The translations under genes were made by a program, and so were the position numbers. A stretch of 64,000 bases of DNA, taken from positions 213,218,001-213,282,000 of the forward strand of contig OZ024741.1 in assembly GCA_964016885.1 (NCBI GenBank). The letters are read 5' to 3'. The first letter of the stretch is position 1, and each line of letters starts with the position of its first letter. A model generated the notes under the pieces. It saw only the letters and a list, made by a program, of their open reading frames with translations, was not told the DNA's origin and searched no databases. This DNA comes from Eledone cirrhosa (taxonomy: Eukaryota). Positions 3,880-60,245 of this stretch are shown piece by piece.

Positions 3880-3999
3880 GTTTACAATTGTTTCGCTACT
3901 CCATATAATATTTCTGGATCAGATGACTATATATCATAATTGATCTCGTTCAGTTGAAAAAAATTAACATAATTAAAAAACAGAGTGGCTCATCGGAAC
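3880..3999 (-). ncRNA. Hammerhead-like motif with C4 core (CCGAUGA) and ~70-nt loop II insertion
   Basis: guu-CCGAUGA-GC.ACUCUG...UGGAGU.GC-GAAA-C-AAUU-G-UA^aac; same motif at 59993-60113. Confidence 0.65.
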
Positions 4000-6438
4000 T
4001 TCAAAGGAATATAAATTAAAATAATGAGAGAATGTTACATAATATAATGTTCCATATATTGCTTTTTCACTATGGTGTCTTGGTTGCATCAGTTGTCAAC
4101 CATAATCAAGCAGTATTCATCTGTCGAGGCTGCATTGTGTGAGATCTGCCTATGGGTAACAATATATATATTTTCAACTGAACCAGATCAATTATGATAT
4201 ATAGTCATCTGATCCAGAAATATTATATGGAGTAGCGAAACAATTGTAAACGGACATTATTATTATTAATATTGTTATTATTATTCTCTACATTCCTTAC
4301 ATCAAACTAAAATATGTTGACAATCTTTTAATAATGTCTTCCTTGTGAAATTTGTGGTCTTGTTTTGCTTAACTAATGAATATATATATATATATATTTT
4401 ATTATATATATATAGATTTATATTTATATATATATATATATATATATATATATATATATATATATATAGAGAGAGAGAGAGAGAGAGAGAGAGAGAGAGA
4501 GAGATGGGTGGAGGGTTAGAGACGTAGAAAGACTGACACTTGTATAGCACTACCATAACCACTGGTATATATATATATATATATATATATATATATATAT
4601 ATATATATATATAAAATATATATATATATATATTTTATATATTTTATATATATATATATTTTACATATATATATGTATATATATAAAATATATATATATA
4701 TATATTTTATATACATATATATTTTATATATATATATGTATATATATAAAATATATATATTATATACATATATATATTTTATATACATATATATTTTATA
4801 TATATATATATATATATAAATATATATATATATATTCACTGTGTCACACTTGATCGGCCAGAACTATAATATGTATACAACAGCGACTAGTAGTATTAAT
4901 TCAGGCACACGATCAGCAATTTACAAAGGTGGGGGAAATACGATTAAATCGACACCAGTACATATCAAGTTCGTTATTTTAATACAAATAATTATTATTT
5001 TATTGTTAAATGCATAAAGCATAGAATTTAGTTGAATACAATTTATATAAATCACAATTTTAAAAGATTCATCTATTTAACAATACAATGTTACTTCGCA
5101 GAAATATTAATGTTGTTTCCTTGAATATAGTTTATTCAACTAAATTCTGAGAAGGATATATCTATTTAACAATATAATTTTGTACTAACAACGGATTCTT
5201 ATTGTTATTTCTCTAGTGCCTCTCAAATAATATGTTGGTTCAAATTAATTCTGTTATGTTTAAAAATGTATTCAGAGTGTATTTGTATACAATATATGTT
5301 TCTATATATATATATATATATATATATATATATATATATATATATATATATATATATATATATATATATATATATATACATACACACTCATACATATATA
5401 TGTTAGTGTGTATATATATATATATATATATGTATTTTTTATAAATATATACACATACATTCACACGCATACATATATATATGTGTGTATTTGTGCGCGC
5501 GCGCGCGCGCGTGTGTGTGTGTGTGTGTGTGTGTGTGTGTGTGTGTGTGTGTGTGTGTGTGTGTGTGTGTGTGTGTGTGTGTATTAATATATATAAGAAA
5601 GACAGAGAGAAGGAGAGATAAACCGAGAGAGATGCATATGCATATATGTGTGTAGATAGTGATATGTATATATATACATACACACTCATACATATAGTGT
5701 GTATATATATATATATGTATGTATTTTTTTATAAATATATACACATACAATCTCACGCATTCATATATATATATATGTGTATTTGTGCGTGTGTGTGTGT
5801 GAGTGTGTGTATTAATATATATAAGAAAGACAGAGAGAAGGAAAGATAAACCGAGAGAGATGCATATATGTGTGTAGATAGTGATATGTATATATATATA
5901 TATATATATATATATATGCATGTAGAGAAATATATATATATGTATGTGTATATGAGTGAATGCGCGTGCGCTTCCTCTTAAGTGTATTGATATGCATATA
6001 TATCGAACAATGATGATGATGGTTATGATAATCTTTACATGGCATTTCGAATTATCCACCATCACCACCACCACCACCCTTTCCGCTCCCCACCACACTC
6101 ACTTTTATGCCGTTAACAACATACATAAATAGACAAAACTAATCGCATTTGTTTTAAAAACGAATTGAATATTTTTGAAACTGTTCTTGACTCTTTCAAA
6201 AGGTCATTCGTACTTTTAACCCGAACAACTTAATGTTAAAAGTTTGGTTTTTCTGTCTGTCATTCTCGTTGTCTTTGCCTGTTTGGAAATGTTAGTCGTG
6301 ACAAACCCAACTTGAACTCGTGATAGATGTAATTGGGGCATACTGTGCAAAAGCAGATTTTTCAACAGCATATTGAGGTTGTTTTTAGTATATATTCATT
6401 TTATAATTGTTATTATTGTTATTTATTATTATTTATAT

Positions 6439-6630
6439 AGCGTCAGACACCGTGCTTTGCAGCAGTGTTATGACCCTTTACGTTCTGAGTTCAAATTCCG
6501 CCGAGATTACCTTTGCTTTCATCCTTACATGGTCGATAAATAAAGAACCTGTAATGCACTGGAGTCTATTTAATCGACTCCCCCCTCCTTCACAATGCCG
6601 GCCTTGTGCCTAAATCAAAAACCATTAATA
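6439..6630 (+). mobile_element. tRNA-derived SINE, Meta/MESC-like family (also 7825-8022, 8095-8240)
   Basis: B box gagttcaaat(t/c)cc; central ctttgcctttcatccttacggggtcgataaaataaagtaccag; tail ggccttgtgcc. Domain name assigned from memory. Confidence 0.85.
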
Positions 6631-6699
6631 TTATTATTATTTATTTGTCTGTTTTTTTTTTCTTACGGATTTATGTTCACGATAATGTTAAATAAAAAG

Positions 6700-7290
6700 G
6701 TCTGACTGTAGGGATAGCTGAGTGTTTAATCGATTCGTTTAGCAACCTTGAGGCCGCACTTTCGATCTCACTGCGTGGAAATTCAGGCAAATGTCAATAA
6801 TATTACACTGTGCAGGCACAGGTATGGCTGAGGTGGTAAGAAGTCCGCTTAGCAATTAAGATTTTCCGTCCGCTTTCGATCTAAATGCATCGTACCTTGA
6901 ATAAATGATATTTTACTGTGTGGACACGGGTATGGCTGAGGTGTTCAAAAGTTCGTTTCGTAATTATGAGGTCCCGTTTTAATCGAAATACTGAACAAAT
7001 ATTGAACAAATGATTGTATTTTATTGACGGTACGCAGGTATGGCTGACGTGTTAAGAGGATGGTTTAGCACTTACGAGACCTCTATTTCGATTTCACAGC
7101 AAGGAAATTCGTACAAATATCGAACAAATGTCGATAATATTAAATTGTTTGGGCACAGATATGGCTGAAGAAATTGGTTTAGCAATCATGAGGTCCCGGT
7201 TTCGAACCCACAGCATGGTAATTCCGATAAATATCGATAATGGAATACTCTGTGGTTTTGTTGAGATAATAAGAAGTCCGTTTAACAAAC
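6700..7290 (+). repeat. Tandem array of about 5-6 degenerate tRNA-SINE heads (~110-bp period)
   Basis: Repeated ggtatggctgaggtg..tagcaa..gag..ttcgat motif; a related dispersed copy at 23401-23545. Confidence 0.65.
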
Positions 7291-58726: not shown

Positions 58727-59012
58727 AAAATAAAGTTAAATAAAAGTCAAATGATTAAAATTTAGCTTCGTTTATTACTGCTATATATATTTCAGTGACA
58801 GCCATCTTTGTGAATTAACAACCCAACAAGGAACTGGGCATATCAGAGTATTGACAATATTATACACCTAAACAACATATGTACTTGTCTATACCATACT
58901 AATTCAAACTGCCTGAAGAGGTCACAGCCAAAGATGGCTGTCACTGAAATATATATAGCAGTAATAAACGAAGCTAAATTTTAATCATTTGACTTTTATT
59001 TAACTTTATTTT
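58727..59012. mobile_element. Fold-back pLTR element
   Basis: 58727-58809 is the inverse of 58929-59012; contains the HHR at 58908-58962. Confidence 0.85.
58908..58962 (+). ncRNA. Minimal type I hammerhead
   Basis: ACUGC-CUGAAGA-GGU.c.ACAGCCA.aaga.UGGCUGU.c.ACU-GAAA-UAUAUA-UA^GCAGU. Confidence 0.85.
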
Positions 59013-59167
59013 ACACTACTCCGGAGTAACCAAACCAACCTGCGCACTTCGTCGAGTGCTCCAGCCTGCATACTGAGGTGTTGGTATACAACCAACATAA
59101 ACTCAATATATATATATATATATATATATATATTGGAAAATGTGTGTAATCCTTGGTACAGTTAGGT

Positions 59168-59412
59168 ATATTAAGACAGGGGGGAAGAAAAAATGGCTTC
59201 ACTTGTGCTTTCAACAAATTTATTTTCTTCACAAAATCCAAAAATAATTTTTTTCCGGATTAGAAAAAAATTTTAATTTATAAAATAATTTTTTTTAAGA
59301 AAAAAAAATTTTTTTTTCTAATCCGGAAAAAAATTATTTTTGGATTTTGTGAAGAAAATAAATTTGTTGAAAGCACAAGTGAAGCCATTTTTTCTTCCCC
59401 CCTGTCTTAATA
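59168..59412. repeat. Near-perfect ~105-bp-arm palindrome
   Basis: 59168-59272 is the inverse of 59307-59412. Confidence 0.9.
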
Positions 59413-59462
59413 TATATATATATATATATATATATATATATATATATATAATATATATATAC

Positions 59463-60245
59463 ACAGTTCAAGAGTAACCAATCTTAAAGAGAGAGATTGA
59501 GATAGTAGAGGAGATATGAGAGGAAAGATTGGTGAGTTAGTTAGAAGCCAAAGCGTAAAGGCATGTGCTCAATGTGCAATATGCAGCAGAAAGCAGCTAG
59601 GTGGCTGGGTTCATGCAGAAGTTAGGTGCGCAGAGCTGGAAATATTCATTAGTTAAGCAAAACAAGACCACAAATTTCACAAGGAAGACATTATTAAAAG
59701 ATTGTCAACATATTTAGTTTGATGTAAGGAATGTAGAGAATAATAATAATAATAATATTAATAATAATAATGCCCGTTTACAATTGTTTTGCTACTCCGT
59801 ATAATATTTCTGGATCAGATAACTATGTATCATAATTGATCTGGTTCAGTTGAAAATAATTAACATATTTCAAAGGAATATACATTAAAATAATGTTACA
59901 TAATATAATGTTCCATATATTAGTTTTTACTATGGTGCTTAATATATGGTACTTTATATTATGTAACATTATTTTAATGTATAATCCTTTGAGTTCCGAT
60001 GAGCCACTCTGTTTTTTTAAATATGTTAATTATTTTCAACTGAACCAGATCAATTATGATACATAGTCATCTGATCCAGAAATATTATACGGAGTAGCGA
60101 AACAATTGTAAACGGGCATTATTATTATTAATATTATTATTATTATTATTCTCTACATTCCTTACATCAAACTAAATATGTTGACAATCTTTTAATAATG
60201 TCTTCCTTATGAAATGTGTGGTCTTGTTTTGCGTAACTAATGAAT
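59463..60245. mobile_element. Non-coding fold-back HHR element, copy 2; C4-core HHR at 59993-60113 (+)
   Basis: Homolog of 3445-4382 with a different inversion breakpoint. Confidence 0.85.

What the first reader, a model, noticed from the sequence alone, without database searches (positions are those of the whole stretch)
3880..60113. Recurrent C4 core (CCGAUGA) in unrelated hammerhead families
Seen: CCGAUGA in both copies of the fold-back family (3880-3999, 59993-60113) and in both pLTRs of the PLE at 49960-53910 (50133-50177, 53827-53871). A CGAC core occurs in the decayed 19037/49018 family. U4 is normally conserved, and creating a CpG is opposite to the usual direction of decay. Inference: a tolerated or attenuated natural variant that may slow cleavage enough for full-length RNA to survive.
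Basis: partly seen in the sequence, partly recalled or inferred. Interest (0 to 1): 0.7.

Follow-up and report, generated by a model that had tools for sequence, protein, structure and literature searches.

The report
Inherited C4 hammerhead core in retrotransposons
Two related families of jumping genes in this animal genome carry, in over nine of ten copies counted, a self-cutting RNA motif with C where nearly all known versions have U; the change is inherited rather than decay, probably arose more than once, and likely gives a slower but still usable cutter (cutting untested).

Summary
Confirmed: four type-I hammerheads with CCGAUGA lie at the stated places. C4 is the family state, not decay: family A superfamily 91 of the first 100 of 11,013 core-free matches, family B 96 of 100 of 534, the decayed 290-bp family C 20 of 32 rows. 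The families are not unrelated: A and B are both Hydra-clade Penelope-like elements (the 'fold-backs' are truncated palindromic B insertions) and group in the RT tree (93/91; two origins not rejected). Sister families, 55 of 78 environmental Hydra loci (0 C4, rest no usable call) and all 26 published Hydra rows have U4, as do 37 of 38 hammerheads in 600 kb of arbitrarily spaced genome. A D-type scaffold with C4 in 2 of 3 copies hints at a second origin. CpG decay is weak (1.5-fold), and a small U4 subfamily also transposed. Best reading: a tolerated, entrenched variant that still cleaves slowly, a protonated C standing in for U; selected attenuation is less likely. U4C was known as a viroid variant; I found no family-wide case in the papers searched. 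This scan reported the same thing earlier on other DNA of this genome (e1-10319565). Cleavage is untested.

The parts
3880..3999 (-). Family B type-I hammerhead, core CCGAUGA at 3996-3990, 95-nt stem/loop II, palindromic stem III ACAAUUGU, predicted cut after GUA between 3883 and 3882
   Evidence: cut site inferred from the hammerhead consensus
3623..4383 (.). Palindromic, 5'-truncated insertion of Hydra family B (split by another repeat at about 3746-3857); the + arm (GAAAC at 4237) lacks the 5' core strand
   Evidence: longer family B copies with RT and GIY-YIG ORF in L073-L076, L079
59993..60113 (+). Family B hammerhead, core CCGAUGA at 59996-60002, predicted cut between 60110 and 60111; 28 of the 42 listed genome matches are identical over all 141 bases
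59643..60246 (.). Palindromic 5'-truncated family B insertion; the left arm lacks the core strand
   Evidence: (last row)
50133..50177 (-). Family A hammerhead in the sense-strand 3' pLTR, core CCGAUGA at 50174-50168, 7-bp stem II, stem III ACGAUUGU, GUC site
53827..53871 (+). Family A hammerhead in the inverted 5' arm, core CCGAUGA at 53830-53836
51490..53749 (-). Broken ORF (frameshifts, stops) of the family A Hydra-clade PLE: RT with DKT motif, C-terminal GIY-YIG endonuclease behind a CxCx5C linker
47009..47053 (+). Family A copy with a sporadic A4 (CAGAUGA); its partner arm at 46405-46434 (-) lacks the core
49018..49102 (+). Decayed family C hammerhead, core CCGACAA (family majority CCGACGA)
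19037..19118 (-). Decayed family C hammerhead (GCGACGA) in an about 290-bp non-coding element inserted in (TA)n
36191..36245 (-). Contrast: U4 hammerhead (CUGAUGA, 5-nt loop III) of Hydra family D, whose broken ORF lies at 36256-38390 (+)

Best explanation
These are pLTR hammerheads of two related Hydra-clade Penelope-like retrotransposon families (and a short non-coding family) in which C at core position 4 is the inherited family state; the RNA likely still folds as a dimeric hammerhead and likely cuts itself slowly, a protonated C4 being predicted to stand in for U4, and the elements likely tolerate this because cutting does not limit their copying. Shown: family-wide C4, PLE context, Hydra motifs, recent spread (identical copies), U4 in sister families. 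Inferred: one origin before the A/B split, at least one more origin in a D-type scaffold, dimer folding, C+ substitution, reduced rate.
For: Position 4 left free: 697 family A sites, of which 64 have a non-C letter at 4 before G5 (57 T, 5 A, 2 G); first 100 of 534 family B sites 96 C4, 1 U4; first 100 of 11,013 superfamily sites 91 C4, 8 U4, 1 chance (control 18). In those 100 rows positions 3, 5, 6, 8, 9 differ in only 1-5 scattered rows each while position 7 splits 69 A / 28 U / 2 G and loop II varies by subfamily, the pattern of a maintained hammerhead. 22 superfamily rows: 91.6% of cells paired, 9 cells with two-sided change (1 of 500 shuffles). Stem III palindromes can form 8-bp duplexes (-5.8, -6.4, -13.3 kcal/mol). 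Contigs of a separate sample show U at position 4 in 2.6% and 3.0% of depth, so it is no assembly artefact. A+B+L284 form a clade, 93/91. A U4 subfamily of A exists (4 of 9 sampled T4 copies share diagnostic changes), so both pyrimidines transpose. Papers: U4C lowers activity in vitro but keeps a viroid infectious (PMC3088659, passage); protonated C replaces U in another U-turn (PMC4105743, PMC6061696); in an Anolis PLE the hammerhead is protein-assisted and catalytic mutants do not affect insertion in vitro (PMC11167929).
Against: No cleavage or expression data. The C+ substitution is shown for a riboswitch loop, not for a hammerhead; in a mutational scan of a type III hammerhead, mutants in the CUGA region had low activity and no second-site rescue other than the 3-8 swap (PMC9901934, passage; no U4C value seen). 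The monomer MFE of none of six window motifs is the hammerhead fold. The A+B node is just below the star threshold and AU tests do not reject four two-origin trees (p 0.09-0.24). Rows of alignment A2 were picked by core patterns, so core invariance there is by construction and relatedness inflates the covariation. C>T runs 2-3 times faster than T>C per site in these repeats, yet C4 persists, which pure neutrality explains less well than some preference for C.
Confidence: 0.5

Rival explanations
1. Selected attenuation: C4 slows cleavage so that full-length RNA survives, and elements with C4 are favoured.
For: C4 persisted through about one amino-acid change per RT site between A and B against a C>T bias of 2-3 fold; U4 revertants stay a minority (57 of 697; 1 of 69 rows in the A7 subfamilies); C4 also appears in scaffolds G, H, I; uncut RNA was the main insertion substrate in PMC11167929.
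Against: U4 families dominate the same genome: 37 of 38 hammerheads in 600 kb, 99 of the first 100 of 13,882 five-nt-loop matches; 55 environmental Hydra loci with a call are all U4. PLE hammerheads are already slow with U4 (PMC4209133). A U4 subfamily of A did spread.
Confidence: 0.2
2. C4 is fully compensated in these scaffolds (stable C+ turn, tertiary contact or protein), so the ribozyme is as fast as with U4 and C4 has become the preferred base.
For: U-to-C is 'seamless' in the neomycin riboswitch U-turn, pKa above 8.2; C4 is kept across subfamilies like a core base; all six C4 scaffolds seen have U at 2.1 (few and not independent).
Against: U4C 'considerably decreases activity in vitro' in the viroid case; no second-site rescue in the CUGA region in the type III scan; no compensating change common to scaffolds A and B was found.
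Confidence: 0.15
3. The ribozyme is catalytically dead; the fold survives as a protein-binding or priming structure of the element RNA.
For: Cleavage was dispensable in vitro for an Anolis PLE and no reads ended at the site; Naiads spread without canonical hammerheads (PMC8557442); monomer folds are not hammerhead-like.
Against: In 100 core-free rows the 5' core bases stay conserved while position 7 varies, and position 17 is A, C or U in the 22 aligned rows (rows chosen with H17); family-level changes at position 4 are between pyrimidines only.
Confidence: 0.14
4. The copies are sporadic mutants of U4 families.
For: Single C4 copies in U4 families do occur (L241, L274; 1 of 100 rows).
Against: C4 in 91-96% of A and B sites with position 4 left free and about 97% of depth in a separate sample.
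Confidence: 0.01

Closest known systems
Hydra clade of Penelope-like elements (Craig et al. 2021, PMC8557442; section 11, passages, supplement parts 1-2 and a search of the supplement seen)
   Same: C-terminal GIY-YIG, DKT, RW motif, CxCx5C linker, (TA)n targets, inverted 5'-truncated arms, type-I hammerhead in the pLTR with palindromic stem III.
   Different: All 26 Hydra rows of File S2, including Hydra-1_oBim, have CUGA; families A and B have CCGA, B has a 95-nt stem/loop II, and elements reach about 4 kb. Their descriptor required the canonical core, so C4 would have been missed.
Minimal PLE hammerheads (Cervera and de la Pena 2014, PMC4209133; parts 1-2 of 4 read, supplement file 2 searched, file 1 not searchable)
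   Same: Short palindromic helix III, long helix II, dimer model, many families per genome, a family-wide core change (U3-A8) in Schistosoma.
   Different: The reported core change is a compensated pair swap; no CCGANGA string was found in supplement file 2.
Viroid U4C hammerhead variant (Ambros and Flores 1998; not held, known only through a passage of PMC3088659)
   Same: Same substitution, natural, compatible with replication.
   Different: There a rare variant of one viroid; here the majority state of about ten thousand genomic copies across diverged families.
C+ U-turn of the neomycin riboswitch (PMC4105743, PMC6061696; abstracts and passages seen)
   Same: U to C at the first U-turn position can be isosteric through N3 protonation.
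   Different: A hairpin loop, not a catalytic core; transfer to the hammerhead is my inference.

Membership tests
Type-I hammerhead ribozyme | Core C3 U4 G5 A6 N7 G8 A9 ... G12 A13 A14 with A15.1-U16.1 and H17 | tested here: not met
   All positions match except U4, which is C; filed as a core variant
Type-I hammerhead ribozyme | Three helices around the core with open stem I | tested here: met
   91.6% of cells paired, slid controls 22-41%, two-sided changes in stems II and III; stem III as intermolecular duplex
Type-I hammerhead ribozyme | Site-specific self-cleavage after NUH | not testable with these tools
   needs a bench assay or raw RNA reads
Hydra-clade PLE (families A, B) | RT followed by C-terminal GIY-YIG endonuclease in one ORF | tested here: met
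   L088 open frame of 778 aa, L074, L079, L081
Hydra-clade PLE (families A, B) | DKG changed to DKT; RWK motif | tested here: inconclusive
   A: ADKTNN in the window ORF, RVRWRT in L088, so RWR not RWK; the N-terminal part of B was not read
Hydra-clade PLE (families A, B) | CxCx5C linker before the endonuclease | tested here: met
   CNCRTNRTC (A), CNCRYPNAC (B)
Hydra-clade PLE (families A, B) | CCHH motif absent from the endonuclease | not tested
   not scored against canonical PLE alignments
Hydra-clade PLE (families A, B) | Insertion into (TA)n, inverted truncated arm | tested here: met
   window 49960-53910 and 59643-60246 end in TA runs; paired arms in 11 of 30 B loci
Hydra-clade PLE (families A, B) | Phylogenetic placement with the published Hydra proteins | not testable with these tools
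   the published sequences could not be brought into a tree; placement rests on motifs and on database homologues
Non-LTR retrozyme (family C) | Tandem head-to-tail units each with a hammerhead | tested here: not met
   copies are single about 290-bp insertions with fixed ends; no linked ORF in 30 loci

The most novel reading that the evidence does not exclude
Retroelements of this genome have moved an 'invariant' hammerhead base to C several times independently (A+B, the D-type family I, the short families C, G, H) and keep it by selection, as a tuned, pH- or protein-gated self-cleaver built on a protonated cytosine; such hammerheads are invisible to CUGANGA searches and may be common in other animals.
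Probability: 0.2. Interest if true: 0.7.

Novelty: new variant of a known kind. Interest (0 to 1): 0.45.

Why it matters
U4 is treated as fixed in hammerhead searches, so whole families are missed. Here young, recently mobile elements carry C4 in thousands of copies beside natural U4 revertants and U4 sister families. That gives matched natural pairs to test an open question: whether Penelope-like elements need their hammerhead to cut, and how fast. It also offers a natural test of a protonated-C turn inside a catalytic core. The ribozyme class and the element class are known, and the scan had noted the variant before, which bounds the interest.

Tried and rejected
Rfam scan: only microsatellite-driven miRNA matches among the rows shown. 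Pfam: weak RVT_1 hits in 2 of 7 proteins, none for family A. RNA runs: no RNA holder listed; the three runs are contigs of one sample of unknown kind and cannot show ends or expression. A degenerate RT pattern found nothing and was redesigned. My early reading that C4 is about half or most of the genome's hammerheads was dropped: those patterns miss GAAAU-type and long-loop families, and the spaced sample gave 1 C4 of 38 (95% interval 0.1-14%). RNA editing as a route to C4: no A>G versus T>C asymmetry in A (26 vs 31) or B (17 vs 18) copies. CpG decay as the only source of U4 copies: not sufficient, a U4 subfamily exists; T4 versus A5 counts are not significantly unequal. L284, the sister of B, is 3'-truncated and has no hammerhead, so it could not settle one origin versus two. 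Linking families G and I to an ORF rests on adjacency: the two endonucleases upstream of G copies fall in different places of the tree, and the ORF piece in L231 belongs to a host D element. The U4 label of L232 in the trees is also an adjacency call. The tblastn step failed and was redone. Not held: Lunse et al. 2017, Ambros and Flores 1998, Scott et al. 2013.
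Full report
Observation. The heptamer itself is not enriched (6 seen, 3.5 expected), but the structure scan hammerheads in the window (4 C4, 6 U4, 1 A4) and none in the reversed window. The decayed pair at 19037 and 49018 belongs to a family whose majority core is CCGACGA.

Is C4 the family state? Yes. With positions 4 and 5 left free, family A gives 697 sites, of which 64 have a non-C letter at 4 before G5 (57 T, 5 A, 2 G); the first 100 listed are 91 CCG, 6 CTG, 2 CCA, 1 CAG (rows counted by hand). Family B gives 534 sites; the first 100 are 93 CCG, 3 CCA, 1 CTG, 1 CAG, 2 CGG. 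A pattern that leaves the whole 5' core strand free finds 11,013 sites of the A superfamily (control 18); the first 100 are 91 C4, 8 U4 and one chance hit. U4 is commoner in the U7 subfamilies (7 of 28) than in the A7 ones (1 of 69; P=0.0006). Family C has C 20, T 4, A 2, G 1, gap 5 in 32 rows, one a duplicate of the window copy. Contigs of one separate sample show T at family A position 4 in 2.6% and 3.0% of depth and list no other letter at 5% or more at family B position 4. All listed rows come from the start of contigs 1-2; the totals are whole.

What the elements are. The window's G000 is a 3.0-Gb AT-rich animal genome; named relatives of the RT include Argonauta proteins, so an octopod is likely (inference). 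Family A is the PLE at 49960-53910. The 'fold-back family' is not a separate kind of element: longer copies carry an RT and a GIY-YIG endonuclease (L073-L076, L079), and the window copies are the usual two-armed, 5'-truncated insertions. Family B is young: 28 of 42 listed matches are identical over 141 bases. An earlier scan note (e1-10319565) pointed me to the Hydra clade; the motifs described in PMC8557442 section 11 are present as set out in the membership test. Family C is an about 290-bp non-coding element in (TA)n with no linked ORF in 30 loci; it shares the stem II base GCCA..UAGC with B (read from the sequences) and loop II similarity with family H.

One origin or several. A census by RT motif found 5,482 sites; I fetched 40 chosen as distinct variants. 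In the RT tree (41 of 73 rows, 390 columns, careful method) family A and family B with L284 form a clade at 93/91, unstarred, about one change per site apart; every other family of this genome with a linked hammerhead is U4, and one diverged B copy (L266) has T4. AU tests on 25 rows do not reject four alternatives that separate A from B (p 0.09-0.24). Of 78 environmental Hydra loci 55 have CUGA, none CCGA, 2 gave spurious calls and 21 no call. All 26 Hydra rows in File S2 of PMC8557442 have CUGA. So U4 is ancestral and C4 derived, most simply once before the A/B split. Other scaffolds point to recurrence but on few copies: family I, with a D-type 5-nt loop III, has C4 in 2 of 3 copies with a core, and the endonuclease next to one of them groups with family D (97/91); G has C4 in 4 of 7 and H in 3 of 7. 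D-type sites are U4 in 99 of the first 100 of 13,882 matches.

How common. In 60 stretches of 10 kb at round-number positions, 37 of 38 hammerhead calls are U4 and one is C4 (family C); about 2 A-type C4 sites were expected and none was called. C4 is therefore a minority state genome-wide and the window is enriched (4 of 10 versus 1 of 38, P=0.005).

Mutation pressure. Genome CpG observed/expected is 0.58, but in family C CpG transitions are 8.8% against 5.9% at other C/G sites. Private C>T changes run 2-3 times T>C per site in A and B, without strand asymmetry. So mutation leans towards U4, modestly. Four of nine sampled T4 copies of family A share diagnostic changes and form a small U4 subfamily; five look sporadic.

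Mechanism. Shown: conserved core apart from position 4, variable position 7 and loop II, paired stems with some two-sided changes (with the caveat that rows were chosen by core patterns and are related), self-complementary stem III. Inferred: dimeric folding as for other PLE hammerheads (PMC4209133 parts 1-2; PMC6765202 passages). U4 contacts the A6-N7 phosphate (PMC3088659 section 8), and a protonated C can make the equivalent U-turn contact in a riboswitch, which makes C the one plausible substitute. The viroid U4C variant is slower in vitro but viable. In the one PLE studied in vitro, cleavage needs the protein and is not needed for insertion. Together these favour a slower, tolerated and now entrenched core (0.5) over selected attenuation (0.2), full compensation (0.15) or a dead fold (0.14). 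Against me: low activity of CUGA-region mutants in a type III hammerhead, non-hammerhead monomer folds, and no expression evidence.

Novelty. Searches of the held library: 'hammerhead'+'U4C' 1 paper; 'hammerhead'+'CCGANGA' 0; hammerhead with CCGAUGA/CCGAAGA/CCGACGA, top 20 of 204 listed, none on retroelements by title; hammerhead+Penelope+octopus and hammerhead+cephalopod+retrotransposon gave only PMC8557442 and a squid genome paper. I found no family-wide C4 hammerhead in these, but Lunse et al. 2017 and Ambros and Flores 1998 were not held, and unseen supplements may list such variants. The bioRxiv preprint 10.64898/2026.07.22.740005 (part 1 of 5 read) and PMC3907566 (passages) added nothing on position 4. 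Verdict: a real new variant of a known kind, found earlier by this scan on other DNA of the same genome; interest 0.45.

Noticed in passing
L078:246 (-), L111:3384 (+), L234:1652 (+), L324 near 411 (+), L245:4088 (+): A repeat with CAGAAGA (A at position 4) in 4 of 5 loci upstream of GCGAAACCTACAGTCAGTAGG; its stem I does not close as in a normal type-I fold, so it may be one of the permuted hammerheads that earlier notes describe.
   Followed up: no
window 20034-22165 (+) and 19491-19551 (-): A further broken PLE-like RT/endonuclease ORF with no blast match to the Hydra families, next to a U4 hammerhead with a 6-nt palindromic loop III.
   Followed up: no
L253, L254, L260-L262, L264, L269, L270, L279, L288, L291, L292: Several U4 Hydra families have very long stem/loop II inserts (85-116 nt), like family B; searches with short-loop descriptors would miss them.
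   Followed up: partly
L251, L252, L256-L258, L263, L282, L287; window 58913, 60631: Abundant U4 hammerheads with GAAAU..AUA (U15.2-A16.2) and AT-only palindromic stem III; the commonest type in the spaced sample.
   Followed up: partly
L244:1787-3337 (+): Tandem array of 310-bp units, each with a U4 hammerhead (retrozyme-like).
   Followed up: no
G000:C1:56502066 (row): A family B copy in which an internal deletion appears to join the CTGAT of loop II to the 3' half, making a short U4-like hammerhead by accident.
   Followed up: no
window 46198-47118: A second palindromic family A insertion about 3 kb from the main one, with an A4 core in one arm and no core in the other.
   Followed up: partly
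window 23769-24975 and 45014-45610: Two decayed copies of another Hydra family (F) with a short U4 hammerhead at 24942.
   Followed up: partly
L313:9552 (-), L318:579 (+): A-like scaffold (GCU/AGC stem I) with a 3-nt loop III and U4 in both copies seen; possibly a U4 relative of family A.
   Followed up: no
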